Below, one piece after another: positions 2,666-59,379 of a stretch of DNA of 64,000 nucleotides; the first letter of the stretch is position 1, and every line of letters starts with the position of its first letter. A program made the position numbers and the translations under genes. A model generated the notes under the pieces. It was given only the letters and a program-made list of their open reading frames with translations. It had not been told where the DNA came from and searched no databases. Origin of the DNA: Mobula hypostoma (taxonomy: Eukaryota); NCBI RefSeq assembly GCF_963921235.1, contig NC_086107.1, positions 107,510,001-107,574,000 of the forward strand, given 5' to 3'.

Positions 2666-3630
2666 ATGGAGAAACATGAAGGGCAGCATCAGCTGGCAGG
2701 AGTAGTCCTGCAGAAACGAGAGGAGAAGGCAGCCCAAACGCACATCTGAGGCTCGGTTTGAGGCCTTAAGCCACACATCTCTGTGAGGCTAAAGGATGCA
2801 GTTCAAGTGTCAAGTAACATCTCACCAAGGGAACCAGTGCTAATAATTTTGTTAAGAGACACAGCACAATAACAGGCCCCTCCTGCACAATGAGCACTTA
2901 TATATTTTGTTAAACTTTAGAGATGCAGCACTGTAGCAGTTTGTTGCCTTCTGCACTCTGATTGATTTTTCATTGATCCTGTTATAGTAACGATTCTATA
3001 ACTTTGCTGAGTGTGCCCACAAGAAAATGAATTTCGGGGTTATGTATGATGACATAGATATACTTTGATAATAAATTTACTTTGAACTTTGGTATTCTTT
3101 TCCACAGATGCTGTCTGACCTGCTGAGTTCCTCCAGCATTTTGTGTGTGGCTTTGGTAACAAAGTAATGAACCCACACTGCCCAATTACACCCAGGTAAC
3201 CAATTATCCTTCTGTCTTTGGAATGTAGGAGGAAACCAGAGCACCCAGAGAAAATCCGCACAGTCACAAGGAGGATGTACAAACTCCTGACAGACAGTGG
3301 TGGGAATTGAACCTAGATTGCTGGCACTGTAATAGTGTTACACTCACCATTTGATATCATGCAGCCCCATTAGTTATTATTATGTTTCCAGATCACATAA
3401 AAAAACATATAAACAAGGGAATACAGTATGCTCTTACAATGTTATATAAAGCGCCCAAAGGAAACCCACACGGTCATGGGGAGAACGTACAAACTCCTTA
3501 CAGACAGCCACATCGCTGGTGCTGTAGTGGTGATATGCTTACTGCCACACTGCCATGCTGCTCAAAAAATCTGGCTATCCTGTGAGCAAATTAGAACAAT
3601 AATTTTTCAGACTTGTTGGATTACGGGAGA

Positions 3631-4356
3631 CTCACAATACACTGGAGGAACTCAGCAGGTCGGGCAGCATCCGTGAAAATGATCAGTCAACGTTTTGGGC
3701 CGCAACCTTTTGTCAGGACTGTAGGGGGAAGGGGCAGAGGCCGCTTCGTCGAGCACCTCTGCTCCGTCCGCCACAACAGACAAGATCTCCCGGTTGCCAC
3801 CCACTTCAACTCTGCTTCCCATTCCCATTCAGATATGTCCATACATGGCCTCCTCTACTGCCATGATGAGGCTAAACTCAGGTTGGAGGAGCAACACCTC
3901 ATATACCGTCTAGGTAGTCTCCAGCTCCTTGGTACGAACATAGAATTCTCCAACTTCCGGTAATTCCCTCCCCCTCCCTTCCCCTATCCCTATTTCACTC
4001 TGCCCCCTCCCCCAGCTGCCTATCACCTCCCTCATGGTTCTGCCTCCTTCTACTACCCATTGTGTTTTCCCTTATTCCTTCTTCACCTTTCCTGCCTAAC
4101 ACCTCCCTGCTTCCCCTCCCCCACCTTTTCATCTTTCTCCTTACTGGTTTTTCACCTGGAACCTACCAGCCTTCTCCTTGCCACCCTCCCCCCACCTTCT
4201 TTATAGGGCCACTGCCCCCTCCCTCTTCAGTCCTGACGAAGGGTTCCGGCCCGAAACATTGACTGGTCGTTTTCATGGATGCTGCCCAACCTGCTGAGTT
4301 CCTCCAGCGTGTTGTGAGTGTTGCTTTGAACCCAGCATCTACAGAGTATTTTGTCT
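3631..4356. mobile_element. Short Penelope-like element as a tail-out inverted pair (minus arm ~3631-3741, plus arm ~3741-4356)
   Basis: 15-bp TSD TTGGATTACGGGAGA at 3616-3630 and 4357-4371. GIY-YIG C-terminal residues RFVEHL..VATHFN..LEEQHLIYRLGSLQ in ORF 3613-3963. Hammerhead-like motifs at 3684-3721(-) and 4228-4265(+). Confidence 0.9.
4228..4265 (+). ncRNA. Minimal type-I hammerhead ribozyme motif (degenerate stem III/cleavage site)
   Basis: CAGTC-CTGACGA-AGG-GTTCCGG-CCC-GAAAC-ATT-GACTG: 5-bp stem I (CAGTC/GACTG), CUGANGA and GAAA core, short stem II. Confidence 0.65.
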
Positions 4357-5018
4357 TTGGATTACGGGAGAGTCTTACAGAAATGTGCTAGGATGAAGAT
4401 TAGCTTTCGTCACATGTGCATCATATAGTGAAATGCGTCGTCTGCGTCAACAACCAACCCAGTCCGAGGATGTTCTGGAAGGACAGGCCGCAAGCTTCGC
4501 CATGCTTCTGGTGCCTACAACTTACTAACCATAACCCAGACATCTTTGGAATGTGAGAGGAAACCAGAGCACCTGGAGGAAATCCACGGAGACCCTGGGA
4601 GAACATACAAACTCCTTCCAGACACTGGTGCGTAATAACGTTTTGCTAACTGCTACCACCCTAAGAATTCAGTTTATCCTATGAACAATTTTACAGACTT
4701 GTTGAATTTTGTGATGTCATATGGGAGAGTCTTACATGGGAAAGAGATGTTCCAGGAGGAAGGAAAACTCTGGTAACAAACAAAGGGAGGGATTTTCAAT
4801 AGACACCAAAGCAGCTAGAAAGCAAAACTGCTGTGCTCTGGTTTAACTCAGAATGTGTGTGAATGGTGAAATCAATGCTCCACATCACAGTGAAGCACTT
4901 AAGAGGAAGTGAGGTAACTCATGATGCAGAAAGGGTTGTCGTTAATATGTGGTTAAATAAGAAGGTGGGACATTTATATCGGATATGTACCCTTTTGGGG
5001 CAAATGGTCTGTATAATC

Positions 5019-5450
5019 AGTGGCTACTTTATTAGGTACATCTGTACAGCTACTCATTAATGCAAATATCTGATCAGCCAATCATATGGCAGTAATTCAA
5101 TGCATGACAACATACAGACAAGGTCAAGAGGTTCATTTGTTGTCCAGACCAAACATCAGAATCAGGAAGAAATATGATCTAATGACTTTGACCATGGAAT
5201 GATTGCTGGTGCCAGATGGGGTGGTTTGAGTATCTCAGAGACTGCTGATCTCCTGGGATTTTCACACCACAGTCTCTAGAGTTTACAGAGAATGGTGTGA
5301 AAAACAAAAAATGTCCAGTGAGCAGCAGTTCTGTGGGCAAAAAAGCTTTGTTAATAAGAGAGGTCAGAGGAGAATGGCCAGACTGGTTCATGCTGACAGG
5401 AAAGCAACATTAACTCAAATAACCAGGCATTGTAATAGTGGTTTGCAGAA
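5019..5450 (+). mobile_element. Non-autonomous Tc1-like element fragment
   Basis: Starts CAGTGGCTACTTTATTAGGTACA, a TIR-like motif also found at ~6110 and ~8021-8073. The body is homologous to 7577-7950, which encodes a Tc1 N-terminal HTH remnant (MGKKCDLSDFDYGMIVGAR). Confidence 0.75.
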
Positions 5451-6627: not shown

Positions 6628-7574
6628 CAGTATATTCCGATTAATTGGGACGTATCGGGATGAGTACATTTTGGCCCAATTAAGAGGCTGCTCCAATTAG
6701 TCAGAGTTTCATGCAAATAATTAAAAAGGTCTAGAATGAACAACTTCCATTTAACTGAGTAACAAATTAGGTACGTATTTAATTGAAATACAGAACAAAT
6801 TAGAACACTACCAATACTACTACAGTCCTATAAAACCGTGTATTAGCTCCTAATAGTTATCGATGGAGGAAATCATCTAGTGTACGTTGATGTGTTCTTT
6901 TGATTGACTGTAACGAACAAAAACTGCACAGACACCTAATGCAGATGATGGATTACCTTTATACAGTAAAGGCTTTTGGTGATTGCAAGATCCAAATCTT
7001 TCATTTTCAATTTAACATTCAAGATGATTGTCGACACATTCAAATTCTTCATAGTCCTAACTTGCTGAAGTAGTGAAATCATTTAATTTTCACTCCCTGG
7101 ACGAGAAGGGTCTTGGCCCGAAACATCACCTGTTTACTATTTTCCATTGATGCTGTCTGGCCTGCTGAATTCCTCCAGCATTTTGTGCATGTTGCTTCAT
7201 TTTCACTCCTGGCCATTTCTGGCATCTCCAAGCCTGAATGCTTGAAACTGCAGTGAGCAAAATAGTTCTGAATTGTCTTTCTGCTTCTTTCTCATCAACT
7301 ATAAGTGACAAAAATCACTGTTTTTTAAACATAAATGCATGCAACTGATACTATTTAAAAGCTGTTTGCTTTGAGTATGGCGTAGTGCCTAAAGGCCACA
7401 CAGGAGCATGCAACTGATGGTAGTTTGAAACTATTCAGCAACAGTTTCCTGTCCTAATTAAGTAGCATAGTGTCCCAAATAAATGAAGGGAATCCCAGCT
7501 CTTTACTTGATTAGTTTTTGTTCTTTAGGAGTTATCCCAAATAAGCGGCTGCCCCAATTAACTAGAATACACTG
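6628..7574. mobile_element. pogo/Tigger-like non-autonomous DNA transposon (MITE)
   Basis: TA-flanked, with imperfect 24-bp TIRs CAGTATATTCCGATTAATTGGGAC / GCCCCAATTAACTAGAATACACTG. A second, reversed copy lies at ~32305-34256. Confidence 0.75.
7101..7198 (+). mobile_element. Penelope 3'-end fragment (partial hammerhead plus downstream sequence) inserted in the MITE
   Basis: GAAGGGTCTTGGCCCGAAACATC...GATGCTGTCTGGCCTGCTGAATTCCTCCAGCATTTTGTG, with near-TSD ATTTTCACTCC(C)TGG at 7086-7100 and 7199-7212. Confidence 0.75.
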
Positions 7575-10500: not shown

Positions 10501-13500
10501 AGTAGGGGAGCAGCCAAGCATCAGACCGAAAGTCCCTTCAAAGGACTATGAGAACAGCTGAGAAGATCATAGGGGTCTCCCTACCATCCATCGGGGACAT
10601 TTATCAGGGGCACTGCATATGCAGGGCCCTTAGTATTATTAAGGACCCTACACATCAATCCAGCATCCTATTTGACTTTCTACCATCAGGCAGGAGACTC
10701 TGATACATAAAGGCAAGAACGGTCAGGTTGGGAAATAGTTTCTTCCCCCAGACCATTAGGCTTCTGAACTCTCTGCCACATCACATTCGAAATGTCACCA
10801 GTACCTTACAATATTTAATATTAATGCACTTTAGTTTGTTACTTTTACGTGATTCATCTATAGATTTTATCTTAGCCTTCATAAGTTATCGTGTGTTATG
10901 TGCTTTACACCTTGGTTCTGAGAAACATTGTCTCGTTTCTCTATACATTATATGGTTATATACGTTATATACATGTATATAGTTAAATGACAATAAACTT
11001 GACGACTTGACTTACAGCGCCAGTGACCCGGGTTCAATTCCACCACTGTCTGTAAATAGCTTGTATGTTCTCCCTGTAGCCATGTGGATTTCCTCCAGGT
11101 GCTTTTCTTTACTCCCACATTCTGAAGTCACACGGGTTAGTAGGTTAATTAGTCACATGGATATAATTGAGTGGCGTGGGCTTGTTGGACTGGATGGACC
11201 TGTTCTGTATCTCTAAATAAATAAAACATATACAAATAAAAAATACTTATAATTCTGCAGATTATTGTAGGATGTGGCAAAAGTTAATCCCAGAAAAACG
11301 GATACAGATATGCAAAGCAGAGGAGACTAGAGATGTTGGATGGCCAATAACAGTACTATACGCATCAAAGTGCTCATCAAAATATAGAAGGTATTGGCCT
11401 TTCTAAGAGTTGAAAGTATTGTTTTCAGCAATATAGCTGTTTGAAAATGATATTCCTTGGTTGGATCTGTGCAATATGTATTTGAAAATGGAAATAGGGA
11501 GGACAATGAAGTCCATGCAGTAGATGAGATGCCTTTGTAGGTCAGATTTGGAACACCAATTGAAAGCAATGCATCTGGTACCAAATGAGGTCAATTGTGT
11601 GAAAGGAACACCCATTAGAAGGAACTATCCAAGATGTTGGTGCAAGGACAACTACTGCCATTTCCCTTTCCCCTCCCCACTTTCTTAATCTCTCTCTTCC
11701 CCCTTTCTTTCCAGTCCCGATATAGGATTTTAGCCTGAAACATCATTTGTTTATTCCTCTCCATGGATGCTGCATGACCTGTTGAGTTCCTCCAGCATTT
11801 GTGCGTGTGTTGCTCTGGATTTCCAGCACCTGCGGAACCTCTTGTGTCAGTAACATTTCAACTTGATTCCAAAGTGATATGTGATGTCCTCCCGAGGCAA
11901 CCCATCTATTTCAAAGAAAAGTAGTTAAATCCATATAGTCAAGTGTACCAGATCAGCTGGGACAAGCCCTGTGAAGGTAGTGAACCCAAAGATTCATGAG
12001 AATCTTTGTAACAATGTAGTTTTATTAAAATTGTAATGATTGTAAAAATGTAGTAAACTGGAAAGATGTCCAAAGATTCTTGGGAGTAATTTCTGTATGG
12101 CTTTGTAGGCTAATGAAGATTGATTCAATCCTATCCATGATTTCAGCCTCACAGGTAACCATGCACATCCCTGTAGTGCAGCAGAGACACTGGAAAGCAA
12201 ATGCCATCAAATCCTAAATGAGCACGGGCAGCACAGTAGTGTAGCGGTAAGTGTAACACTAATACAGTGCCAGCGATCCCGCCACTGTCTGTAAGGAGCC
12301 TGTATGTTCTCCCCATGACCCTTTGGGCTTCATCCCCCACTCCAAAGACTTAAAGGTGAGTAAGTTAATTGGTAACATGGATGTAATTGGGCGGCGGGGG
12401 TACATTGGTAGAGAAAGGCCGGTTACTGTGCTGTATCCATAAAGAAAATAGTAAGGAGAAGCAGTGGCAGTATGCTCTCACCTGTATCAGTGGCTATCAA
12501 GGATAAATTCAAAGTAGAGGCAGAGTCACTGACTAAAACAGTGACAGTGCCCCTAATACATAGACTTGCTCCCCATCTTCTCATTTGGTGTGTGTTACAA
12601 TATAAAGCAGCAAGCTGAGAATTCGGTTGGGTTCAAGAGATCTTAAAAGGGCTCAGAATAGTAGCCATGAAACTATAAAAGATTTTCTGATAGAGCTGAG
12701 AAGAGGGAAAAATTTTCAATGCATTGGATGTGGAGAATGCAAGAGAAGTACATACTTAGCCTGGTGCCACATATCATTTTAGATCATTGGAGATGACTGC
12801 TATTTGGAACCAACATGGCACGAGAGGAATTCTAGCAAAGCTGGTTGGTGTATGGGAAGGTCTCAATGGAGTAAAAATCATGGGAGATGATGAATTGGTC
12901 TTTGTAGAAGGACAAACAGGACAAAAGGCAGAATGAGTCCATGACTAGAAGCAGATGAAGGGAAAATCTCTGGAATACTGAACAACTAAATTTTGAAGTT
13001 CTGAGTGAAGAACACCACTTTCATGAGTCACTTCATTGGCAGAAATGATCTGAAGTGAGATCCAGCAAAAGTGAACACCATGAAGCAGATACCAGACCCA
13101 ACAGATTTTGCTGTGGTGCAGTTCTTTCTAGGGTTCGTCCGTCTTCTAAGCAATTTCTTGCCCTGGCCAAGTGAAATACTTGAAAAACTGTGACAGTTGA
13201 TTGAGTGGAAGTGATTTAAGTATTAGAACAAAAATAACTGGAAGGACTGGAAATATGAAAACCAGGGGATTCTGGAAGTGTTCAGCTGATCATTCAGGAT
13301 CAGTTGGGGAGAGAAGCAGAGACAATATTTTGGATCAAGGACTTTTCGTTGGTGTAGTGTTGGCTGGATCAGATGAAGCAAGGAAACATTCACACAGAAA
13401 AGACCGTTGTTCAATGATTTGCTGATAAGAAGGTGCCGTCTGTATATGCAGGCTTGTCTAGAAGATATTGGAGCAATGAACTATCTTGCTGCCATCAGGA

Positions 13501-14055
13501 AGAAGGTACGGGAGACTCAGAACCTACACCACCAGATTCAGGAACAGGTATTATCCCCTGACCATCAGGCTCCTGAACTATAGGGGATAATTTCACTCAG
13601 CTTCATTTGTCCCATCATTGAACTGTTTCCCCAACCAAAGGACTCACTTTCATGAACTCTTCATCTCATGTTCTCAATATTTATTGTTTATTTATTACTA
13701 TTATTTCTTTCTTTTTGTATTTACACAGTTTGTTGTCTTCTCCATGCTGGTTGACTCCCCAAATTAGTGGTCTTTCATTGATTCTCCCATGGTTATTACT
13801 CTACATATTTATTGAGTAGGCCAAAAAAGAAAATGAATCTCAGGGTCGTACATGGTGACATTAATGTACTTTGATAATAAAATTACTTTGAATTTTGAAG
13901 TAAAGGCTGCTAATGGTATACACAGCAGAGCTCTGTCAGATGTGGAGACGTATTACAAACCGTAAAAGAGCTACTTGTTGGCATCGTTGGACTGAAGAAA
14001 TGTTACCAGTAGCAATTATGGTAATGGTATGTGGGCACAGAGATCAGACATCATT

Positions 14056-33556: not shown

Positions 33557-33558
33557 TA

Positions 33559-37650: not shown

Positions 37651-39522
37651 TTGCTCCTGTATCCAGTTAAAACTTCCAGCACATTGGAAAGTGATGCGTA
37701 TATTATGCTTAATCATTAAAAATAATCAAGTTGAGGATCTAGTCTGAATGTTTTAAGACCTGTGAAGGAAGATGAGGAAAAACAACACTGATGCAGAAAG
37801 TCTATATGAATTTTTAAATCAATTATAAGTACTAGGTATTTATATAATTTATTTCACTATTTTGTTATTATAGATAATGTTAGTGTTGTTATGTGTGATC
37901 CCACACACAGCGGTATGACCAGAATATTTGGAGTAATGTTAATTGAATTAAGTATCAGCAGCACACAGGATATATCCCCTAGTCTTCAAAATAATGCCGC
38001 GGAATCTTTTGCCTTTATTTGAGGAGGATTATTATAAAATTTGAAAGGTTGTACCTTGGACAGCCCAATGCTCTGGTAGTGGTGCTCAGAGTGTCGGCCT
38101 AGATTTTGTGCTCTAGCCTCTTAAAGTTTAGAGTTCAAATCCTATTTATGGCTTGTGGATGAAAATAAACTGAAGGGTGTTTTGAAGGTGTTCAGATGAG
38201 TTTGAGGTAAAGAATTGTACCTTTAAGGGAATAATAATCCAGTCATCTATTTTTGTTGCATTTTCTCCCATATTTCATTAGTTCCCTTTTATACAGAGCT
38301 GCTTAGAGTTTGTGTGGGCACTAACCCAATTACTTAATGTTGTGACTGTAATAGCAGGTTCATATGCAAAATCCTCTCCTGTAAACAACATTCCAGTGAT
38401 ATTGTTGGAGTAATGAACTTCACTACCAGATCTCCAAGAGTCTGCTTTATATAAACACAAGGGATTCTGCAGATGCTGGAAATCCAGAGCAACAGGCGTT
38501 TTGATTGTGTGTTTTTATATGTTGTTGAAGTCTGTTTGTCACCCTTTTGACTTCCCTTTGTGTTTAGGTAGATAAACAATTTCAGATAAGTGTAATTCTG
38601 ATCCCAGGGTGCAATGTTTTGTCTGCAGCTGATGTGTTATTGACATCCCTTTTTAACTATAATTTATCAGATTTTCACACTTTCCCTTTTAATGTTCTTT
38701 CCTTTTTTTTGAGAAGGGGTTGACTTTTTGAGTGCCTACTTCACATGCAGGTTGTTTTTGATCCTCCACCCAAGTGGCAATTTCTGTGAGAAGCATTCAT
38801 TTTTATAAATAATCTTTCATGACTGCAGGGCATTGCAAACTATTTCATAGACAATTAAGTACTTTTGAAGTGTGGTCTTTGATGATAATGAGCAGATGCT
38901 GATGACAGTGGTTGAGGAATAAATATTTGGCAAGTGCACTGGGGAACTTCACATGGCCGCTTTTGATTTGTATTAGATGATCTTCCATGTCCTTGTGAAA
39001 GGGAAGGCGGCATCTTAGTTTTTCCTCATGAAGGACAGCAACTCTGAAAACAGTGCTGTCCAGGTACTGCATGGAATGTGTGTTACCAGCAACAAGACTA
39101 ATCATGGGAGATTCCGTCAATGCTTTGGCCATTCCACAACCACTGTTATTGTTGTGGCTGAAAAAACAGCTGTGCTTGAACCAGTGTACATTCTTAAGTG
39201 GAAATACCGGCCATATTTCTCTGTCTGTGTGTCTCTGTCTGATATCTAACATTTAATCGCAGTCTTCCACTCCCAAGATTTCTTCTTGAAAGAACATAAC
39301 CGTAGGCAGGAGTGGATAGAAATGGAAAGGGAAACTTGTTCAATCACTGCATTTACTTACGGAACATGTTTCAGTTTTACAGTGTACATTTTAAACAAAG
39401 ATACCTCAGGGAATTGGTGTAGTTCCAGAATTTATATTGAAACTGGGTTATGTGATACAAATAACATACATCAAAGTTGCTGGTGAACGCAGCAGGCCAG
39501 GCAGCATCTATAGGAAGAGGCG

Positions 39523-39560
39523 CAGTCGACGTTTCAGGCCGAGACCCTTCGTCAGGACTA
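39523..39560 (-). ncRNA. Minimal type-I hammerhead ribozyme motif (intact core)
   Basis: Reverse complement reads TAGTC-CTGACGA-AGG-GTCTCGG-CCT-GAAAC-GTC-GACTG. Confidence 0.8.
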
Positions 39561-39855
39561 ACTGAAGGAAGAGTGAGTAAGGGATTTGAAAGCTGGAGGG
39601 GGAGGGGGAGATGCAAAATGATAGGAGAAGACAGGAGGGGGAGGGATGGAGCCGAGAGCTGGACAGGTGATAGGCAGAAGGGGATACGAGAGGATCATGG
39701 GACAGGAGGTCCGGGAAGAAAGACGGGGGGGGGGGAGTGACCCAGAGGATGGGCAAGAGGTATATTCAGAGGGACAGAGGGAGAAAAAGGAGAGTGAGAG
39801 AAAGAATGTGTGCATAAAAAAGAGTAACAGATGGGGTACGAGGGGGAGGTGGGGC

Positions 39856-41525
39856 CTAGCGGAAGTTAGAGAAGTCAATGTTCATGCCATCAGGTTGGAG
39901 GCTACCCATACGGAATATAAGGTGTTGTTCCTCCAACCTGAGTGTGGCTTCATCTTTACAGTAGAGGAGGCCGTGGATAGACATGTCAGAATGGGAATGG
40001 GATGTGGAATTAAAATGTGTGGCCACTGGGAGATCCTGTTTTCTCTGGCGGACAGAGCGTAGATGTTCAGCAAAGCGGTCTCCCAGTCTGCGTCGGGTCT
40101 CACCAATATATAAAAGGCCACATCGGGAGCACCGGACGCAGTATATCACCCCAGTTGACTCACAGGTGAAGTGATGCCTCACCTGGAAGGACTGTTTGGG
40201 GCCCTGAATGGTGGTAAGGGAGGAAGTGTAAGGGCATGTGTAGCACTTGTTCCGCTTACACGGATAAGTGCCAGGAGGGAGATCAGTGGGGAGGGATGGG
40301 GGGGACGAATGGACAAGGGAGTTGTGTAGGGAGCGATCCCTGCGGAATGCAGAGAGGGGGGGGAGGGAAAGATATGCTTAGTGGTGGGATCCCGTTGGAG
40401 GTGGCGGAAGTTACGGAGAATAATATGTTGGACCCGGAGGCTGGTGGGGTGGTAGGTGAGGACCAGGGGAACCCTATTCCTAATGGGGTGGTGGGAGGAT
40501 GGAGTGAGAGCAGATGTACGTGAAATGGGGGAGATGCGTTTAAGAGCAGAGTTGATAGTGGAGGAAGGGAAGCCCCTTTCTTTAAAAAATGAAGACATCT
40601 CCCTCGTCCTAGAATGAAAAGCCTCATCCTGAGAGCAGATGCGGCGGAGACGGAGGAATTGCGAGAAGGGGATGGCGTTTTTGCAAGAGACAGGGTGAGA
40701 AGAGGAATAGTCCAGATAGCTGTGAGAGTCAGTAGGCTTATAGTAGACATCAGTGGATAAACTGTCTCCAGAGACAGAGACAGAAAGATCTAGAAAGGGG
40801 AGGGAGGTGTCGGAAATGGACCAGGTAAACTTGAGGGCAGGGTGAAAGTTGGAGGCAAAGTTAATAAAGTCAACGAGTTCTGCATGCGTGCAGGAAGCAG
40901 CGCCAATGCAGTTGTCGATGTAGCGAAGGAAAAGTGGGGGACAGATACCAGAATAGGCACGGAACATAGATTGTTCCACAAACCCAACAAAAAGGCAGGC
41001 ATAGCTAGGACCCATACGGGTGCCCATAGCTACACCTTTAGTTTGGAGGAAATGGGAGGAGCAAAAGGAGAAATTATTAAGAGTAAGGACTAATTCTGCT
41101 AAACGGAGCAGAGTGGTGGTAGAGGGGAACTGATTAGGTCTGGAATCCAAAAAGAAGCGTAGAGCTTTGAGACCTTCCTGATGGGGGATGGAAGTATATA
41201 GGGACTGGACATCCATGGTGAAAATAAAGCGGTGGGGGCCAGGGAACTTAAAATCATCGAAAAGTTTAAGAGCGTGAGAAGTGTCACGAACATAGGTCGG
41301 AAGGGATTGAACAAGGGGTGATAAAACAGTGTCGAGGTATGCAGAAACGAGTTCGGTGGGGCAGGAGCAAGCTGAGACAATAGGTCGGCCAGGACAGGCA
41401 GGTTTGTGGATCTTGGGTAGGAGGTAGAAACGGGAAGTGCGGGGTGTGGGAACTATAAGGTTGGTAGCAGTGGAAGGGAGATCCCCTGAGCGGATAAAGT
41501 CGTTGATAGTGTGGGAGACAATGGC
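39856..41525 (-). pseudogene. Penelope-type reverse transcriptase + GIY-YIG endonuclease, 5'-truncated and frameshifted
   Basis: In-frame upstream of ORF 40179-41216 is FYLLPKIHK..PGRPIVS, followed by MDVQSLYTSIP, QTKGVAMGTRMGPSYA, RYIDN (catalytic D changed to N), LPFLDL and VYYKPTD. A -1 frameshift occurs in a C8 run at ~40356-40363, then the PCKRNKCYTC linker and VIYCVRCSRCGLLYIGET..RFAEH..HF..LEEQHLI endonuclease. Confidence 0.92.
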
Positions 41526-42584
41526 TTTTCATTCTAGGACGAGGGAGATGTCTTCATTTTTTAAAGAAAGGGGCTTCCCTTCCTCCACTATCAACTCTGC
41601 TCTTAAACGCATCTCCCCCATTTCACGTACATCTGCTCTCACTCCATCCTCCCACCACCCCATTAGGAATAGGGTTCCCCTGGTCCTCACCTACCACCCC
41701 ACCAGCCTCCGGGTCCAACATATTATTCTCCGTAACTTCCGCCACCTCCAACGGGATCCCACCACTAAGCATATCTTTCCCTCCCCCCCCTCTCTGCATT
41801 CCGCAGGGATCGCTCCCTACACAACTCCCTTGTCCATTCGTCCCCCCCATCCCTCCCCACTGATCTCCCTCCTGGCACTTATCCGTGTAAGCGGAACAAG
41901 TGCTACACATGCCCTTACACTTCCTCCCTTACCACCATTCAGGGCCCCAAACAGTCCTTCCAGGTGAGGCATCACTTCACCTGTGAGTCGACTGGGGTGA
42001 TATACTGCGTCCGGTGCTCCCGATTTGGCCTTTTATATATTGGTGAGACCCGACGCAGACTGGGAGACCGCTTTGCTGAACATCTACGCTCTGTCCGCCA
42101 GAGAAAGCAGGATCTCCCAGTGGCCACACATTTTAATTCCACATCCCATTCCCGTTCTGACATGTCTATCCACGGCCTCCTCTACTGTAAAGATGAAGCC
42201 ACACTCAGGTTGGAGGAACAACACCTTATATTCCGTATGGGTAGCCTCCAACCTGATGGCATGAACATTGACTTCTCTAACTTCCGCTAGGCCCCACCTC
42301 CCCCTCGTACCCCATCTGTTACTCTTTTTTATGCACACATTCTTTCTCTCACTCTCCTTTTTCTCCCTCTGTCCCTCTGAATATACCTCTTGCCCATCCT
42401 CTGGGTCACTCCCCCCCCCCGTCTTTCTTCCCGGACCTCCTGTCCCATGATCCTCTCGTATCCCCTTCTGCCTATCACCTGTCCAGCTCTCGGCTCCATC
42501 CCTCCCCCTCCTGTCTTCTCCTATCATTTTGCATCTCCCCCTCCCCCTCCAGCTTTCAAATCCCTTACTCACTCTTCCTTCAGT

Positions 42585-42622
42585 TAGTCCTGACGAAGGG
42601 TCTCGGCCTGAAACGTCGACTG
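42585..42622 (+). ncRNA. Minimal type-I hammerhead ribozyme motif (intact core; predicted cut after C42617)
   Basis: Stem I AGTC/GACT, core CTGACGA, stem II AGG/CCT with a 7-nt loop, GAAA, loop-less palindromic stem III (ACGT) and a GUC cleavage triplet. Confidence 0.8.
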
Positions 42623-43860
42623 TACCTCTTCCTACAGATGCTGCCTGGCCTGCTGCGTTCACCAGCAACTTTGATGTATGTTGCTTGAATTTCCAGCATC
42701 TGCAGAATTCCTGTTGTTATGTGATACAAATGTTATGAGGAACTTAAGCAATTAATTTTTCAGCCGAAGTGTTTATGGAATGGATAACTAAGTGAAATAA
42801 GCAAGCAGGCAGTTTGGTGCAGTTTGTTGAGTTTGAATACAATGTTCTGCTCAGTGATGTTGTTTTGAGTAAGGACAGTGCACAGGACCAAAGTGTTTTT
42901 TTCCTGAATTGCATGATTCTTTAAATTACTTTAAATTACTTTGGGGTAAGCCTGAATGCTTTGATGTTTCTAATTGTCCAAGTTTGCTGTCTGAAGAGAC
43001 ACTTCATCTGTGCAAAAACATTTACCAAACTTATGAAAGATTATAAATGGGGAAAACATCTTGGGAAAGTTTTTTTTACATAAAATGCACTTTCTCATTA
43101 TGATGGAAGAGTTTTAAACAATAATCTAACAGGGTAGGATATATGGAAACAGATTGTTGCTAGTGGTAGAGGGATTTAACCTGATGTGAGATAATGAACA
43201 GAGCCAAAAAATAGCATTTGAAATTGGAATTCTCTTTCAAGATTAGTAGGGAAGGAAAAATAATATGAGAGTTTTAATTTAGATTAAATAGATAGATGTT
43301 AGAAAAGGAAACCAGTTGGTAAATATGATATGGGCCATAAAGATACTAAGTGTAAACATAAGCTTGAATGGGCTGAATTACTGGTCTCTGATTTCACATT
43401 TCTGTTCAGCCTTTTAAATCTGAATTTTTGAATCCTGAATCAGAATTTCAATCCTAGCCAACTAGCTATAAAGTGCAAGCTTGATGATTTTGGTTATTAC
43501 GGTTAGAAATAATGGGGAGCAGTTTGTTTTTTTATGTACTATTAACTAATTGTAAAGCATTAACTTAACAGTAATTTGACATTTAGATGTTGAAGCCAAA
43601 TAAATAAAAATGGGATTTTCAGAGTGACAGCTTTGTGACATCTGTCTTCTATGTGAGTTGCACATTGGATTGTTATGTTTTCTGTAGTCTCTTTCTGACA
43701 GAGAGGTACATTGGAAAATTGCAGTTTTTGCATTAGTTGTGCGTATCCGGCATAATTTGTGTGGATAAAATGTAGAGATAGTTATAATCTGGAGAATCAG
43801 ACTGGAGGATCCTCTGTATCTGATCTTTCATGACGTGCCTATTTGTGATCTGGTTCCTGA

Positions 43861-47079: not shown

Positions 47080-48615
47080 GTGAGCGTTAAATGGGAATGA
47101 AAAATATGCAATTTTTTTCCAAAACACAAAATGTACCCTGCCTCACTAGGGGGGAAAATAAAGGTCATAGTTAGAAAGAATTTCAAATAGTCAATTCTTG
47201 CTTATACAATCTTTGCAAAAAAAGATGTTACATCTTTTAATTCCCTGAGAAAATAACGACTTACTTGAGATGTTGTTTGAATTGATAATTTGGTTCAAAT
47301 TTCTTTCTTTTTAAGTGTTGGTTTGGTGTGCAGTGTTAATATTTGAATTTTATGTATCTTAGAGTTTAAAAAATTGTCTGATAATTTATTGCTAAATTTC
47401 AAAATGTTGCCCTTACAGTAATTTTACTGTTGCATATTTGTCATACTACATATTTCATAACATTACTTGATTTTTTTTTTGGGTCTCAAGCACATCTCTT
47501 CCTATGTGAAACCTTGCAATTTTTGTTTTGTTTTGCTGTGGATTTTGCCTCCTTTCCCTATTTCTCAACTCCACCCACTGGGCAAAGGACTGGTGGTGAA
47601 CACAGGTGCCAGTTCATTGTTGGGCTTTTGCCCAAATGATCAATCTCTGAATGTGAATTTTGACTGTGAAGATGTCAAATTCTTTGAAGGACGTATCACA
47701 GCTGATTGATGCTATCTCATCCAGTAACCAGGCATATGACTTTCTCAGCAATCTAGTTACCAGTCAGGAGGCATGGTTATTTTGCTTTCTCTTCCTTCTC
47801 CTAGGTGTGATGTGATAGTTGTAATATAACAATAATCTCCCAATGAAGTGAGAATAAGCTATGGCATAAAATAGAAAGATTATTAGCTCGGAATGTCGGA
47901 TCACAGTGGCTGGAACTAAGGCATGAAGAGCCAAAACATTGAGAAAAGTTTATGATGCCGCCTCTTCTTTTCCTCATTTCTCTCTCCACACCTGCTGTGT
48001 AGTTGTAATGCTAAGAAGGCTAAGCTCTGAAAATCAAAGGATAATGTCATCAGGTGCTATAGTCGATGGGAGCTTTGATGTTCGTGTAGATTGGACAGAC
48101 CAACAGAAGATGGGTTTATTATTTGATTTCATAGTTTCTTCTTCTGGCATATCCAGGGACCAACTAGGGAAAATGCATTTTGGACCAAGTTTTGTGCAAA
48201 GTTAGGCTAATCTCGTTGTAGAAGTATGTCAAGGGATGAGTTGACATAAAATAATTTTTATATTGAGTCTGAAAGTGAATTAGTTAAGTAACTAATTTGC
48301 TAGGTGTTGGCTATGTCGCATTGTGAAAGTAGATTTCAAAGTCAGTCGATTAGTTAAAGGTAAATACTCAATAAAAGGATTTGTATTGTAACTCCTAATT
48401 CAAAATTCCCTAATCAGGGGGAATAATTACCAACATCTACCCTTTCTTTAGGTCATTTAAGCTGGAGATTTGATGCATTTTAATTCTGTTAATTGTTCCG
48501 GTACTTGTTCTGTGCTAATACATTGAATGGATATTACTTTTATGGAATAAAATACTCAAATGCGATATAGTTGGTCCAAACATGAGCGCTGAGAAGTTGA
48601 TCAAGAAGTTTATAA

Positions 48616-48679
48616 GCAACACACACAATACTGGAGGAAATTCTTGGTTTTCCACCATCTGCAGATTTTCTCTTGTTTG
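48616..48679. mobile_element. Minimal inverted Penelope insertion (64 bp)
   Basis: 14-bp TSD CAAGAAGTTTATAA at 48602-48615 and 48680-48693. Minus-strand pre-tail GCAACACACACAATACTGGAGGAA is joined to plus-strand tail TTTCCACCATCTGCAGATTTTCTCTTGTTTG. Confidence 0.8.
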
Positions 48680-49768
48680 CAAGAAGTTTATAATATTGTT
48701 TTAAGACCATAAAATATAGGAGTAGAATTAGACCACTTGGCCTATTGTGTCTGCTTTGCCATTTCATCGTGGCTGAACCTTTATTGAGTAAAGAAACAAA
48801 TGAAAGTTGGAAGTTTAATTGAGAAAATTTTTAGAATTTGACTAAGGATGCTGTGCGGAGAAAACGGTGTGTGATAAAATAGAAAATGTATAATTTTTAT
48901 TTGTATGTAAACTGAGATGAGTAAAAGTAATTTGGATCCCAAACTAACACAGAAAGGAGAAATTATAAATTTAATTCTTAACAGGAAATGACAAAAAGAT
49001 TACACATTTTCATAATGTAAGTTAAATGTGTTCCAGAAATAATTGGGAAACCAAATCTCTGGTGAGAATGAGGAACTTAAAAACTAGTATTAGTACAGAA
49101 AAGATTTGGGAGTAACTAATAGAAAAAAAGCTATCAAGCTCCCAGACATGAAAGCTGGAGATTATTCCTGCTGGTTAGAATTAGGAGTTGGTCTCAAAAT
49201 TAGTTGGCCACTTAGACTGAGATTGTATGAAGAAAATTCTCCCAAAATGTTTTGTAATTCTCTATCTCTAGAGGACTGTGGATATTCAGATGTGTGTGTG
49301 TATATATATCAACATTTAATTGCTAGATTTTCAAATGCAAAAGAGATTAAGAGTTAATGACGATTGTTCTGACAATTAGAGTTGAGGGGGAATAACAGCC
49401 AATGATTAGAGTAGACATCGTTTGAATTGGCAGCTAGTCTACTTCTGCATAAATTGTTCCTTTCACATAATCATCTCAATGAGCCTTCCAGGGAATCAAT
49501 GCTGTTGGTAAAATAGATGAATGTATTGCATTAGTGCTTCCTGATTACACCATTCAAGGTAATATTCTACACAAGCATGAGATTGCTTTAGAAACCAAGG
49601 AGAAAATTCACAAAATTAGGGGTTTTCACTTTGATAATTTGGTCCTTCAAATTTACTGAGTGATGTCTAAGGTGTCGTGTCTGAGAATAAACATGAGGAA
49701 AAGTAAGCTTAATGTATTTGCATTTAACCATGCTAGAACAACTGTGATGGAGTTAAATTGAGGACTTA

Positions 49769-53660: not shown

Positions 53661-55555
53661 GTAAGGATGTCAGGTTTGGAGTTTTTGGATTATGTTTGTA
53701 ATATAATTTGATGGCCTTTGATTGCGATTGTTTTGACTGTTCTATGAAGGGGATTCATGGCCTGCTGGCAACACATAAGGTGCTGGGGGAACTCAGTAGG
53801 TCAAACAGCACCTGGAGGCAAATGGACAGTTGACGTTTTTAGTCGAGACTTTACCTGGACTATCCAGTGCCTAGGTGAAATGTTGATTGTTCAGGGTTTA
53901 CTGGAGATTCAGTGTCACTCCACCCCGACACTTTGAATTTAATGGTGACTTGTTTTCTGCTATCCCGGATTGAGCTTAACCTTCTTGTTCCTTTTCGCGT
54001 TCTTGGTATCTTGGCTTTTTTAAAAAATCAGCACTTCAAGGACTGGGAAAATGAAAGGCGTGTCACTCTTTGGTTAGGTTGTGATTATGTGGGCAGTGGG
54101 AAAATCATCTCTCTTGTGCTTCTTGATCTCATCACTCAAGATTCGGTGTCATGCAACTCTGCCACTTTGATCTGCTAAGTTCCTCCAGGGTGTTGTTCCC
54201 GATTCCAGCACACAGTCTCTTGTGTTTCAGTCTGATTTAGATGCCTTAAGCCTGATTCAATCTGGAAGTGCTATTATGGACCTCTGCACTCTGAGACTAT
54301 AAGAGAGGAAATTATCCAAATTCCAAAAGTGGTAATTGTCCTCCAACTGTTGATTGAAGCTATTGTGTCTGCAGATGTTATGATGTGCAAGAAACAGAAT
54401 AGTCTGTCAGTGCAGTGTCCAGGCTTGTTTTTTTAAACCAAGAACTGCAATAGCTTATAAACAATTAACCAAGTGTAGAGTGAGCAACACACATCAAAGT
54501 TGCTGGTGAACGCAGCAGGCCAGGCAGCATCTGTAGGAAGAGGTGCAGTCGACGTTTCAGGCCGAGACCCTTCGATCCAGTTTTAGTTGCTCAGTTTGAA
54601 TATAGGATTCCCAAATGAAAGTTGTACCAAGCATTTGTGTTTTTTAATCCATCAAACATTAATGGAAAATGTTGAAGTCCTCTTGGTTACACTGAATATC
54701 TGACATACCATATAAATTGGTGCATAAGACTTCAACCTCACTTTCTGTGGTTCTTCAGCTTGGGACTTCTGCTCAATCTTTTCACTGCACTTCGTTAAGA
54801 ACCAATCTGGTATAGGTTGGAAGCCCTTTATGCAGCTTTAAAAGCTCATCTATTGCAGGTGTGGAAAAAATAGAGACTAAATAATGATCATGTTACCATT
54901 TAAAACATAGTTTTAGTAGATAGTCAGCATGCTTGAACTATTTTTATGTCCAGGAAGTGATGCACGGCATTAATGTCGAAACTACTTTTAGAAACCTGCT
55001 CTTCTATACAAAGAATAACCACTCTGGGTATTTTACTTTGAGTAACTTTTAAGTAAGTTGAAATCTCTTAAGTCAATTGTCTTCTATCTGTTACAATATC
55101 ATAGTAGGGGTGAGTTAGATAATAAAGTTACAATTGGGTTTGCATACTGAGATTTTTTAGTGCATTTCCTTCTTCTTGGTTCAATTCTGTAAATTAATCT
55201 CATACAATCTACCACTCAGTCAGAATGTTTTCATTTAGCTATTACCACAGGACAAGAACATAAAATGTTCCAATGCAACATCTGAGGATTAATTATAATA
55301 GCCAAATGCTGATCTTTATCAGGATGTGTGATTGAGGCTCAGTATCTGTTCAAGTGGTCAGGTAAGTATTCAGAATGTTGCAAAGGAAGGAAAGTAAGGT
55401 GTTTTCCAGGCAACACACACAAAATGCTGGGTCAGGCAGCATCTGTGGAGGGAACACCAAAAGGCTGAATGGCATACCTCAGCTTCTATTTCTTTTTATA
55501 TTCTCAACAAAACTAGTATCTGCCTTACTGCAAAGTAGAGCAGTGTATAAAATAT

Positions 55556-56125
55556 AAACATGAGGAAGTCTGCAGATGCTAGAAATCCAAAGCAACACAC
55601 ACAAAATGCTAGAGGAAATCAGCAGATCAAGCAACATCTATGGAAATGAATAAACAGTTGCCGTTTCGGGCTGAGACCCTTCTTCAACACGAGAAGGAAG
55701 GGGGAAGATGCAGGAATAAAAAGGTGGGGGAAGGGGAAGGAGGCTAGCTAGAAGGTGATAGTGAAGTCAGATGGTTCGGAAAGGTTAAGGGCTGGAGAGG
55801 AAGGAATCTGATAGGAGAGGAGAGTGGACCATAGGAGTAAGGGAAGGAGGAGGTGGCCTGGGGGAAGTGATAGGCAGATGGAAAGAGATGAAAGGTCAGA
55901 GTGGGGAATGGGTAGGGGAGATTTTTTTTTTACCTGAAGGAGAAATCAATATACATGCCATCAGATTGGAAGCTACCAGATGGAATATAAGATATTGCTC
56001 CTCTACCCTGAGGATGGCTTCATCTTGGCACAAAAGGAAGGCATGGACCAATATATTGGAATGGGCATCGGAATTAAAATTTTTGCCAACAGGAAGTTCC
56101 GCTTGTAGCGATGGCGCAAAGGTGC
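55556..56125 (-). mobile_element. Penelope 3' fragment (endonuclease end, degenerate hammerhead, full tail)
   Basis: ORF 55896-56141 has CQDEAILRVEEQYLIFHL. GTTTCGGGCTGAGACCCTTCTTCA lies at ~55663-55686. Confidence 0.8.
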
Positions 56126-57730
56126 ATAAAATGTTAGCCAAGGTTGCCTAGGTAATAGCCATCTTGTACTTAAAATAAAATATGTAAGTAAGTTAGTGAT
56201 GTACCTGAGTGATGTAATTCTTTGTTATCTGCTCACCACTTTATTAAGATAATGATTTTTGTGTTTGTGATTGAGGTTTGCTCTATTGAGTTGCTTGACT
56301 TGCTACTTTAAAAGTCTGTAAAATTATGTAAGCATAAATGGATTTGCACCAGTGGAGGTTGCACGAGACATTTCATGTCATAAATTTCCTAGTACAACCA
56401 TAATAAAAACTATCTCAATTGTCTCAATAAGGTTCTATGTTCTTTATTTTCCCTATTTAAAATAGGATAGCCCGTCTGATTGCTCTAAAATTTGACAAAG
56501 TAGTGGAATATTTATGACTCCTCAATTGATTAGATTTGTCAAATATTCCAAGAAATCATTGTTGTCAACTTGATTGCTTCTTGGAGAAGCCATTTGAAAC
56601 ATTCATGGCTATCAATTTAAAAATAATTGTGTAATCAGTCTTACTTTGACCACACTTCTGAATTTATTATGGTGAACTGGGTCTATCAGAAAGCATTTCT
56701 TGAGGCAAACCTTGAAAGCTGAAAGGATTCTAGCCTGTGAGCCTTTTGTCTATTCTACATAAACTCAAGATTCTGCTGTTTCTCGCTGAAGCTGAAGTAT
56801 CTGATTCTAAGCTGAACAGTTTGTCTTTTCTAGCTATTTTCTGGCACTATCAGTGCTCTAGCTATAAGTATTACTGCAAAGACTTATTTTTATTATTCCT
56901 TATTCTTAATTGCCCTGAGTTTGAATTGAGTTTGACAGGCCACTTCGGGGCACCTGAGAATAAATCATATTGGTGTGAACGTGTGCACTACACTGAATTC
57001 ACTGTTTTGTTTACAAAGCACTGCATGACCCAAGAGACAATTTGAGTTATTTACTATTGAATGTACAGTTTCAATGGCAAGTACAGTGATATCTCAACTG
57101 TTTTCTATGTGGTAATATTTTTCTAGATTTTCCCCAGTTCCATCATCTCTTCAGTAAGTTATCTATATGTCCTTTGTTGCCCTCCATTTGGGTTGTGCTG
57201 TCTTTTTTTAAATCACTAGTAGTGGATTTATTTAAGTACCATTTTGGAGGCCTGTGCACATTAAAAATCTCAACAGTCCATTTTGTTTTGGATGAGACAT
57301 TAACCTGACACCTTGCCTGCCTGCCTTTCCAATTTGATAGGCTTGAAGGATCTTGTGGATCTCCCTCAGTTATTCTGGTTGATATTGCTCAGTTAAAGCT
57401 ACAAATAACAGTATCTAGTCATTTTCATTATACGTTTTATGCACAAATGAGTTCCTTTGTTTTCTGCAAGTCATTCCAGTCAATTGAAGTGAAAGATGGA
57501 ATGTAAATGCAGACCTGTCTTTACCTGATTCTTAATGATGAATATCAGTAAACTGTTTGTTTATGAAGCCAGCTGGTGGTGTAGTGGCATCCTCACTAGA
57601 TTTCAAGGTGAGCGGTTTCGGGTTCGAATCAGCTAGCTCCCTGCCTGCTTTCCATCCGTGCTATGTTGAGTGTCGAGCTAGTAACTCAGCCTTGTTAAAA
57701 AAACGAACAAAAATGCTAAAGAAATGGCAA

Positions 57731-58484
57731 CACGGGGAAATCTGCAGATGCTGGAATTTCAAGCAACACACTTAAAAGTTGCTGGTGAATGCAGCAGACC
57801 AGGCAGCATCTCTAGGAAGAGGTACAGTCGACGTTTCGGGCCGAGACCCTTCGTCAGGACTAACTGAAAGAAGAGATAGTAAGAGATTTGAAAGTTGGAG
57901 GGGGAGGGGGAGATCCAAAATGATAGGAGAAGACAGGAGGCCGCCCACTTTAATTCCATGTCCCATTCCCATTCTGATATGTCTATCCACGGCCTCCTCT
58001 ACTGCCAAGATGAAGCCACACTCAGGTTGGAGGAACAACACCTTATATTCCATCTGGGTAGCCTCCAACCTGATGGCATGAACATAACTTTCATTAATGC
58101 CCCACCTCCCCTTCGTACCCCATCCGTTATTTATTTATATTATTATATATATAATTATTATTTTTTTCTCTCTTTTTCTCCCTCTGTCCCTCTCACTATA
58201 CTCCTTGCCCATCCTCCGGGATTCCCCCCTCCCCTTTCTTTCTCCCTAGGCCTCCCGTCCCATGATCCTTTCATATCCCTTTTACCAATCAACTTCCCAG
58301 CTCTTGGCTTCATCCCTCCCCCTCCTGTCTTCTCCTATCATTTTGGATCTCCCCTCCCCCTCCCACTTTCAAATCTCTTACTATCTCTTCTTTCAGTTAG
58401 TCCTGACGAATGGTCTTGGTCCAAAACGTCGACTGTACCTCTTCCTATAGATGTTGCCTGGCCTGCTGCGTTCACCAGCAACTT
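57731..58484. mobile_element. Short Penelope-like element as a tail-out inverted pair (minus arm 57731-~57940, plus arm ~57941-58484)
   Basis: 14-bp TSD TAAAGAAATGGCAA at 57717-57730 and 58485-58498. Endonuclease C-terminus HFN..HGLLYCQDEATLRLEEQHLIFHLGSLQPDGMN. Hammerheads at 57825-57862(-, intact) and 58398-58435(+, GAAA mutated). Confidence 0.92.
57825..57862 (-). ncRNA. Minimal type-I hammerhead ribozyme motif
   Basis: Reverse complement reads TAGTC-CTGACGA-AGG-GTCTCGG-CCC-GAAAC-GTC-GACTG. Confidence 0.75.
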
Positions 58485-58758
58485 TAAAGAAATGGCAAGG
58501 TTGCTGCCCGATGCGCCACAAAGCACGGAAAGGAACAACAATTTGTCTGTAGGAGCAACTGAGCTTTAGCAAAACCTGTGCTGTCATTTGAATTTTCTCA
58601 TTGATACCATGTAGTCAAGCACTTGGTATAATTTCTGCCACTGTTTTAACTAGAAGAAGCTAAATTAACTCTGGGATGTTTCTTGTCTGGAAACTGAGCT
58701 TTTTGCTGGATAAATATTAGACCATGGGGAAAACTTAAGGAACATTTCAACATTTTAG

Positions 58759-58869
58759 TACACAAACAAGAGAAAATATGCAGATGCTGGAAATCTGAGC
58801 AACACACAAAACGCTGGAGGAACTCAGTGGGCCTGGCCTCAGTGGCCTCCAGCATTTTGTGTGTGTTTC
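58759..58869. mobile_element. Minimal inverted Penelope insertion (~110 bp)
   Basis: TSD TCAACATTTTAG at 58747-58758 and 58870-58881. A minus arm with full tail faces a plus arm CCTCCAGCATTTTGTGTGTGTT that has no tail. Confidence 0.7.
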
Positions 58870-59379
58870 TCAACATTTTAGCAATTTATTTTGGAATTTT
58901 GTTATGGTAAAGTTCCTACCTTAGGCTTAGACCTGCTTTTATTTTTTGTCTCTCCTTTCAAGCATGTTTGTAATTAATCAGAGCACCATGTACATTGTGG
59001 GGACTTTTAATTGCTTCCTGCTGTAACAGTAAGGAGATATGAGACTGTGACACCAGTGTGTAGGACGTGAACTGGATGCAGCTGACTGAAAGAAGTCATT
59101 GAGCCTGCGTTGAATTAATATTAGTGGAAATGAATTATCGATGTAAAACATGCTTCACTGACCCTGTCCTTTCAGCTGTCTCTGTTATTCCAATGCTTTT
59201 GTATCATCTGAATTTTTTTGTGAATAAATTGTATGAGGCTAAAAGGGAAGTTAGGAGTATGTAAATACTGAATTTCTGTTTATCCAATATTCTCCAGAAA
59301 TCAGTGGCTATCCTATATTTTGGTGAAGTGATTCTTGTTTATTAGTGAGCTTTGACAGTGACTGTTGCTGTGTGTCTGG

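What the first reader, a model, noticed from the sequence alone, without database searches (positions are those of the whole stretch)
3616..58881. Recurrent insertion rule: tail-out inversion, 12-16 bp TSD, one arm missing the terminal ~33-45 nt
Seen in five independent insertions from at least two subfamilies: 3631-4356 (TSD 15, extra tail 38 nt), 39463-42715 (TSD 16, tail 33 nt), 57731-58484 (TSD 14, tail ~45 nt), 48616-48679 (TSD 14) and 58759-58869 (TSD 12). Arm lengths range from ~25 bp to 2 kb, but the tail-less arm always begins near the (T)TGTGTGTTGC motif. Solo tail-less ends at 7101-7198, ~23701 and ~54483 stop at the same place. Inference: a fixed internal priming or processing site plus a 3'-end priming site gives a stereotyped dual-priming integration mechanism. 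Unlike L1 twin priming, it duplicates the 3' region.
Basis: partly seen in the sequence, partly recalled or inferred. Interest (0 to 1): 0.85.

Follow-up and report, generated by a model that had tools for sequence, protein, structure and literature searches.

The report
Penelope-like retroelement insertions, one-tailed inverted pairs
The inverted, duplicated insertions with an extra 30-45 base tail on only one arm are copies of a Penelope-like retrotransposon, and this lopsided structure is a published hallmark of that class, here confirmed and counted across a whole genome.

Summary
All five insertions have the stated ends, exact 12-16 nt target-site duplications (TSDs) and a 33-45 nt tail on one arm only. 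The elements are Penelope-like elements (PLEs). The 2 kb arm encodes a reverse transcriptase followed by a GIY-YIG endonuclease, collinear with an 806-aa relative. The arms carry the minimal hammerhead motif typical of PLEs. The rule is already in print: an inverted 5'-truncated copy plus a 30-40 bp tail, often at one end only (PMC8557442, PMC3846280). The tail is reported as the stretch between two adjacent internal reverse-transcription start sites, with both DNA strands cleaved and extended (PMC11167929). What I add is counts. In 264 kb, 12 of 12 inverted pairs have one tail and 11 have a TSD. Genome-wide, 3,097 of 3,410 short pairs (90.8 %) have one tail, 5.0 % two and 4.2 % none, against 44-50 % expected if the ends were independent. 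The opposite orientation is about 240-fold rarer. So "always" is overstated, the dual-priming inference is supported, and the finding is known biology with a useful new number.

The parts
3616..3630 (.). TSD copy 1 of insertion 1 (TTGGATTACGGGAGA)
   Evidence: exact 15-nt word, second copy at 4357-4371
3631..3742 (-). Insertion 1, tail-less inverted arm (112 nt, subfamily B)
   Evidence: pairs with 4207-4318 at 87 %; ends at reference B position 130
3743..4356 (+). Insertion 1, tail-bearing arm (614 nt). It holds the end of the GIY-YIG coding region, the hammerhead core at 4233-4257 and the tail at 4319-4356.
4357..4371 (.). TSD copy 2 of insertion 1
7101..7198 (+). Solo 5'-truncated tail-less copy with its own TSD (ATTTTCACTCC core)
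23702..23783 (-). Solo tail-less 3' end fragment stopping at GTTGC
29994..30284 (+). Solo tail-less copy with a 12-13 nt TSD (TAGTAAGAGTA core)
39447..39462 (.). TSD copy 1 of insertion 2 (GTTATGTGATACAAAT)
   Evidence: second copy at 42716-42731
39463..41530 (-). Insertion 2, tail-less arm (2,068 nt). It encodes a reverse transcriptase (40179-41528) and, after one frameshift, a GIY-YIG endonuclease (39856-40377). Hammerhead core at 39531-39555.
41523..42715 (+). Insertion 2, tail-bearing arm (1,193 nt). GIY-YIG ORF at 41769-42290, hammerhead core at 42590-42614, tail at 42683-42715. It overlaps the other arm by 8 nt at the junction.
42716..42731 (.). TSD copy 2 of insertion 2
48602..48693 (.). 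Insertion 4 with both TSD copies (CAAGAAGTTTATAA at 48602-48615 and 48680-48693). Tail-less arm at 48616-48642 (-); right arm at 48643-48679 (+) is tail only.
54483..54574 (-). Solo tail-less 3' end fragment, no clear TSD
57717..57730 (.). TSD copy 1 of insertion 3 (TAAAGAAATGGCAA)
   Evidence: second copy at 58485-58498
57731..57940 (-). Insertion 3, tail-bearing arm (tail 57731-57763, hammerhead core 57833-57857)
57939..58484 (+). Insertion 3, tail-less arm, ending about 13 nt before the usual GTTGC end
58747..58881 (.). Insertion 5 with both TSD copies (TCAACATTTTAG). Tail-bearing arm at 58759-58837 (-); tail-less arm at 58838-58869 (+).
11696..11845 (+). Older tail-bearing 3' end, apparently solo
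55563..55735 (-). Older tail-bearing 3' end, apparently solo

Best explanation
These are insertions of Penelope-like retroelements (PLEs), which encode a reverse transcriptase fused to a GIY-YIG endonuclease.

**Likely mechanism**
1. The element's protein nicks both strands of an AT-rich target, 11-16 bp apart.
2. Each free 3' end primes reverse transcription of element RNA.
3. Synthesis starts at one of two fixed sites about 33-45 nt apart near the 3' end of the unit: a proximal site at ...TGTGTGTTGC and a distal site after the tail.
4. The two cDNAs grow towards each other. Both are usually 5'-truncated. They are joined head to head by microhomology or a few filler bases.
5. The result is an inverted pair with 3' ends outward, flanked by a TSD.
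6. In one event the two strands almost always use different start sites, so one arm carries the tail and the other does not.

**What is shown here**
- The anatomy, the TSDs and the protein content.
- The bimodal end-points.
- The one-tail bias and the orientation bias.

**Taken from print**
- Cleavage and extension of both strands, and the two start sites.

**Inferred**
- That the two starts are coupled within one protein-RNA complex.
For: **Identity**
- A reverse-transcriptase ORF and a GIY-YIG ORF lie on the same strand of the 2 kb arm.
- Pfam gives GIY-YIG at 23.5 bits, above its 22.6 cut-off. RVT_1 scores 20.8 bits, which is below its cut-off.
- 321 longer relatives were found. By my count 33 of the 120 listed carry PF01541 beside PF00078.
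- The two ORFs align collinearly to residues 252-641 (57 % identity) and 637-800 (49 %) of P0009.
- The hammerhead-like core occurs 4 times against 0 expected and fits the published PLE min-hammerhead features.

**Anatomy in 264 kb**
- 12 of 12 inverted pairs have one tail.
- 10 have exact 11-16 nt TSDs, one has a 13-nt TSD with one mismatch, and one has none.
- Each arm can hold sequence the other lacks. The tail is on the shorter arm in 3 of 5 clearly unequal pairs.
- The 39463 junction has an 8-nt overlap.

**Genome-wide**
- 3,097 of 3,410 pairs have one tail.
- The tail fraction among all ends is 67 %.
- The 3'-ends-inward arrangement occurs at 8 loci, against 1,903 for ends-outward.
- TSDs are 73 % AT against a 59 % background.

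**Literature**
- PMC8557442 (passages).
- PMC3846280 (passages).
- PMC11167929 (outline and main text).
Against: - Rfam found no hammerhead at gathering score in the window, nor at E up to 10 in 42500-42760.
- RVT_1 is below Pfam's cut-off.
- One of 12 local pairs (101721-103712 in the extension) has no TSD and a complex interior.
- About 5 % of short pairs carry the tail probe on both arms and about 4 % on neither, so coupling is not absolute.
- In the published in-vitro system the two strands showed no difference in start-site use, so the coupling seen here is not explained by that work.
- No full-length or tandem (pseudo-LTR) copy was seen in the 264 kb.
- Copy counts are not event counts.
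Confidence: 0.9

Rival explanations
1. Self-priming (snap-back). A single cDNA folds back on itself and is copied, giving the inverted arm. This was proposed for PLE head-to-head repeats with palindromic junctions.
For: - PMC3846280 discussion.
- Several short pairs are nearly symmetric, with both arms starting within a few bases of each other: 166962, 180425, 181460, 193566 and 58759.
- By eye, in the first 50 loci listed, no pair had arms differing at 2 or more of three subfamily-diagnostic sites, and some pairs share private variants.
Against: - In 39463-42715, 57731-58484 and 150770-152449 the tail is on the shorter arm and the longer arm has unique sequence, so neither arm can be a copy of the other.
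- A fold-back copy should run into inverted flank, not end 33-45 nt early next to a direct TSD.
- The arms of 39463 and 150770 differ at two diagnostic sites.
Confidence: 0.15
2. Endonuclease resolution. The tail difference arises after synthesis, when the element's endonuclease cuts a symmetric intermediate at the tail on one side. It would not come from two start sites.
For: [quoted passage not shown]
- PMC11167929 cites earlier work in which the tail was needed for endonuclease recognition.
- The existence of about 5 % two-tail pairs could be unresolved intermediates.
Against: - Two start sites flanking the tail were mapped directly in vitro.
- Solo tail-less copies with clean TSDs exist at 7101-7198, 29994-30284, 238014-238350 and 258391-258987. 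This shows the proximal end can arise without a partner arm.
Confidence: 0.2
3. Two independent insertions that happen to lie in opposite orientation, for example one element inserting into another.
For: - The family is very abundant, with 80,265 tail-bearing ends, so neighbours occur.
- One local pair lacks a TSD.
- By eye, about 4 of the 50 listed two-tail pairs have arms of different subfamily type.
Against: - One TSD flanks the whole pair in 11 of 12 cases.
- The ends-outward arrangement is about 240 times commoner than ends-inward at the same spacing.
- One-tail pairs are 90.8 % against 44-50 % expected.
- By eye, the 8 ends-inward neighbours look independently assorted: 4 two-tail, 3 mixed, 1 none or unclear.
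Confidence: 0.03
4. A cut-and-paste DNA transposon or miniature inverted-repeat element with terminal inverted repeats and a TSD.
For: Inverted ends plus a TSD, as at 3631-4356.
Against: - The arms range from 25 nt to 2 kb and are unequal.
- One end has 30-45 extra bases.
- The interior is reverse transcriptase and GIY-YIG coding sequence in two orientations.
- No transposase was found.
Confidence: 0.01

Closest known systems
Canonical endonuclease-containing Penelope-like elements (Penelope/Poseidon, Neptune and related clades) and their 'tail' signature
   Same: - Reverse transcriptase with a C-terminal GIY-YIG endonuclease.
- A minimal hammerhead motif near the 3' end.
- Frequent 5' truncation, with an inverted 5'-truncated copy adjacent.
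- A 30-40 bp tail at one end.
- Short TSDs of variable length.
- AT-rich targets.
   Different: - Nothing essential differs.
- TSDs here are 11-16 nt, against 8-10 bp in the rotifer examples.
- No tandem or pseudo-LTR full-length copy was seen in the 264 kb.
- The clade within PLEs was not determined.
- The roughly 91 % one-tail frequency is a number I did not find in the passages I read.
L1 twin priming (recalled from general knowledge; not read here)
   Same: Both target strands prime reverse transcription, giving an inverted structure inside one TSD.
   Different: In L1 the second primer anneals inside the same RNA, so the product is an inversion without duplication. Here both arms start in the 3' region, so that region is present twice, and the two starts are offset by a fixed 33-45 nt.
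R2 / LINE target-primed reverse transcription
   Same: Nick-primed cDNA synthesis at the target, 5' truncation, and junctions formed by microhomology.
   Different: [quoted passage not shown]

Membership tests
Penelope-like elements (EN+ PLEs) | Reverse transcriptase and GIY-YIG endonuclease in one polyprotein, with the endonuclease C-terminal | tested here: met
   The ORFs are collinear with residues 252-800 of an 806-aa relative that scores GIY-YIG above Pfam's cut-off and RVT_1 just under it (29.4 against 29.6). The window copy has one frameshift between the domains, and its RVT_1 score is below cut-off (20.8 against 29.6).
Penelope-like elements (EN+ PLEs) | Hammerhead ribozyme motif in the terminal repeat | tested here: inconclusive
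   The motif CTGANGA-N-GG...CYGAAAC occurs 4 times against 0 expected. It fits the published min-hammerhead traits: an extra base after position 9, a G-C closing pair and a palindromic ACGU. Rfam models give no hit. Cleavage was not tested.
Penelope-like elements (EN+ PLEs) | Inverted 5'-truncated copy adjacent, forming inverted repeats around the insert | tested here: met
   12 pairs in 264 kb. 3,410 short pairs genome-wide in two size classes.
Penelope-like elements (EN+ PLEs) | 30-40 bp 'tail' present at one end only | tested here: met
   Tails of 30-45 nt. 12 of 12 local pairs are one-tailed. 90.8 % of 3,410 pairs genome-wide are one-tailed.
Penelope-like elements (EN+ PLEs) | Short TSD of variable length | tested here: met
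   11-16 nt, median 14, in 11 of 12 pairs. Permutation control maximum 10 nt.
Penelope-like elements (EN+ PLEs) | Partial tandem copies forming direct pseudo-LTRs around a full ORF | tested here: not met
   No full-length or partial-tandem copy was found in the 264 kb examined. All copies there are 5'-truncated, so the feature could not be seen. This is absence in a small sample, not in the genome.
L1-type twin priming | Second priming inside the same RNA, giving an inversion without duplicated sequence | tested here: not met
   Both arms cover the same 3' region, with up to 1,161 nt shared at 99.3 %.

The most novel reading that the evidence does not exclude
The two adjacent reverse-transcription start sites may not be alternatives chosen at random. 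They may be used once each within a single integration complex. Either one RNA molecule is copied twice, first from the proximal site and then from the distal site with displacement of the first cDNA, or an asymmetric protein dimer holds two RNAs in staggered register.

This reading would explain four things:
- The roughly 91 % one-tail rule.
- The 50:50 left/right split.
- The near-symmetric arms of many short pairs.
- The shared subfamily type, and shared private variants, of the two arms.

The published in-vitro work saw no strand difference in start-site use, so such coupling would be a new constraint on PLE integration.
Probability: 0.3. Interest if true: 0.6.

Novelty: already known. Interest (0 to 1): 0.3.

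Why it matters
PLE integration is still only partly understood, and the authors of the in-vitro study say later steps remain to be validated.

- **Resource.** This genome holds at least 80,000 ends of one young family and thousands of short, well-preserved inverted pairs with intact TSDs. That is a large natural record of integration products.
- **Quantitative constraint.** One tail in about 91 % of pairs, two in about 5 %, an even left/right split, and an excess of about 240-fold for the ends-outward orientation. Any model of how both strands are primed must reproduce these numbers.
- **Annotation.** These structures are easily mistaken for terminal-inverted-repeat DNA transposons or foldback elements.

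Tried and rejected
- **Rfam.** The gathering scan of the window gave 0 hits. The permissive scan of 42500-42760 gave only chance-level hits: mir-483, UnaL2 and ar14, with E of 1.8-3.1.
- **DNA search of the own genome.** A 157-nt query found nothing because common words are skipped. Pattern searches worked instead.
- **De-novo TSD search for solo copies over 4 kb.** It had too high a background, with control words up to 14 nt. Only short-range TSDs were accepted after inspection.
- **Clustering of arm differences.** My idea that the arm-to-arm differences of 39463-42715 cluster near the 3' end was wrong. The 8 differences are spread over positions 468-1113 of 1160.
- **Conserved hairpin in the tail region.** RNAalifold gave only -1.47 kcal/mol, so no claim is made.
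- **Earlier notes of this scan.** None exist for this genome.
- **Literature search for 'Penelope' with 'twin priming'.** It gave 2 incidental hits.
Full report
**What is there.**

The window is eukaryotic DNA from a 3.48 Gb assembly. At each of the five stated places there is an insertion made of two copies of the same element in opposite orientation. The 3' ends point outward and the (usually truncated) 5' ends meet in the middle. An exact direct repeat of target DNA flanks the whole.

| Insertion | TSD |
|---|---|
| 3631-4356 | 15 nt |
| 39463-42715 | 16 nt |
| 48616-48679 | 14 nt |
| 57731-58484 | 14 nt |
| 58759-58869 | 12 nt |

In each insertion one arm runs 33-45 nt further than the other. 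The shorter end stops at or just before ...TGTGTGTTGC. Two subfamilies about 74 % alike are involved.

**What the element is.**

- The 2,068-nt arm of 39463-42715 carries a 449-codon open frame with a weak RVT_1 match (E 3e-4, below Pfam's cut-off). After one frameshift it carries a 173-codon frame with a GIY-YIG match above cut-off. The other arm repeats the GIY-YIG frame.
- A search for longer relatives found 321 proteins. The 120 listed are mostly 800-950 aa, and by my count 33 of them carry PF01541 beside PF00078.
- The two window frames align in order to residues 252-641 (57 % identity) and 637-800 (49 %) of one such protein.
- According to the papers read, a reverse transcriptase with a C-terminal GIY-YIG endonuclease is the architecture of Penelope-like elements.
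- About 65 nt upstream of the short end, the arms hold CTGAnGA-A-GGG...CCY-GAAAC-GTC. This occurs 4 times in the window against 0 in shuffles.
- That motif has the published traits of the PLE minimal hammerhead: a base between positions 9 and 10.1, a G-C closing pair, no helix III loop and a palindromic ACGU.
- Rfam's hammerhead models do not score it, so I rate that feature inconclusive.

**What is already in print.**

- PMC8557442 (passages): PLE insertions are highly 5'-truncated. Often an inverted 5'-truncated copy sits next to the 5' end. A 30-40 bp tail is often present at only one end of the insertion.
[quoted passage not shown] The paper discusses self-priming as a source of head-to-head repeats.
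- PMC11167929 (outline and main text): a purified lizard PLE protein cleaves and extends both target strands, starts reverse transcription at two adjacent internal sites of the RNA, and prefers AT-rich DNA. The authors equate the tail with the stretch between the two start sites.

**Local census.**

I added 200 kb downstream of the window and mapped every 3' end onto real copies from the window.

- **Tail call.** The tail score is bimodal: at least 28 with the tail adjacent, or 22 and below.
- **Pairs.** There are 12 inverted ends-outward pairs, and all 12 have one tail-bearing and one tail-less arm.
- **TSDs.** Ten have exact TSDs of 11-16 nt and one has 13 nt with one mismatch. One (101721-103712) has none and a complex interior.
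- **Control.** Mismatched flank pairs share at most 10 nt (n = 132, mean 5.6).
- **Target composition.** TSDs are 73 % AT against 59 % for the region.
- **Solo copies.** Both classes have TSDs of their own. Tail-less solos: 7101-7198, 29994-30284, 238014-238350 and 258391-258987. Tail-bearing solo: 150004-150629. Either site can therefore serve alone.

**Genome-wide test.**

Pattern counts over the whole assembly gave 0 for every reversed-pattern control. The probes were exact 12-nt cores at the proximal site and a 5-nt tail probe.

| Size class (span) | Pairs | Tail left only | Tail right only | Both | Neither |
|---|---|---|---|---|---|
| 184-214 nt | 1,903 | 908 | 845 | 83 | 67 |
| 154-183 nt | 1,507 | 667 | 677 | 88 | 75 |
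| Together | 3,410 | 1,575 | 1,522 | 171 | 142 |

- One-tail pairs make up 90.8 % of the total. The per-arm tail frequency is 0.504.
- Independence predicts 50 % mixed pairs (chi-square 2,274).
- At the family-wide tail fraction of 67 % (42,206 of 62,764 ends), independence predicts 44 % mixed and 45 % two-tail.
- The two exception classes are upper bounds. A 5-nt probe can be lost by mutation, and it can be met by an end that stops a few bases late.
- The opposite arrangement (3' ends inward, same spacing) occurs at 8 loci against 1,903. By eye those 8 look independently assorted.
- These counts are of copies, not events. However, the junction sequences printed differ from locus to locus.

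**Mechanism.**

- In three of five clearly unequal pairs the tail is on the shorter arm while the longer arm has unique sequence. Neither arm can then be a copy of the other, which argues for two separate reverse-transcription starts rather than a simple fold-back.
- The 39463 junction shows an 8-nt overlap. Other junctions have 0-2 nt overlap or 1-19 nt of filler. One has three to four tandem 38-nt units.
- Many short pairs are nearly symmetric. By eye, in the first 50 loci, no pair had arms differing at two or more of three subfamily-diagnostic sites. The long pairs 39463 and 150770 do differ at such sites.
- I therefore favour dual target-primed synthesis with coupled use of the two start sites.
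- I cannot exclude fold-back for symmetric short pairs, or endonuclease resolution of an intermediate.
- Nor can sequence alone tell one RNA copied twice from two RNAs in one complex.

**Verdict.**

What is new here is the quantification, and the hint that start-site use is coupled within an event. The published in-vitro data do not show such coupling.

Noticed in passing
window 40179-41528 (-), residue about 204 of the ORF: The reverse-transcriptase catalytic motif reads YIDN in this copy where the relative P0009 has YIDD. With the frameshift before GIY-YIG, this young-looking copy is probably not autonomous.
   Followed up: partly
extension 166962-167198 and 181460-181695 (loci L011, L012); junctions printed: The 5' ends of arms in short pairs recur at the 5' edge of the hammerhead motif (AGTCCTGACGA). 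They do not fall at the predicted ribozyme cleavage site about 33 nt downstream. Cause unknown.
   Followed up: partly
window 57939; extension 150014, 151840, 258391 (loci L009, L020): Several independent copies begin at nearly the same internal point, inside the end of the GIY-YIG coding region. The junction of 150770-152449 holds three to four tandem 38-nt copies of that point.
   Followed up: partly
whole genome (G000): One PLE subfamily alone has 80,265 tail-bearing ends within 2 mismatches of a 33-mer. PLEs are therefore a major repeat of this 3.48 Gb genome.
   Followed up: partly
window 33557-34149: A cluster of inverted and direct repeats of an unrelated unit of about 45-135 nt (GGGGTGATTGATAAGTTTGTGGCCTAAGG...) at 87-96 % identity.
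   Followed up: no
window 49764-51526: Inverted repeats of 36-86 nt, 1-1.7 kb apart, containing CAGTACTGTGCAAAAGT-like ends. This may be a DNA-transposon remnant.
   Followed up: no
window 14001-18000 and 20001-22000: Strong positive GC skew of 0.26-0.35 over several kb.
   Followed up: no
G000:C136:209066-209250 and G000:C137:394163-394347: Two small contigs show the same pair of facing ends with nearly identical flanks. They are probably the same locus assembled twice.
   Followed up: no
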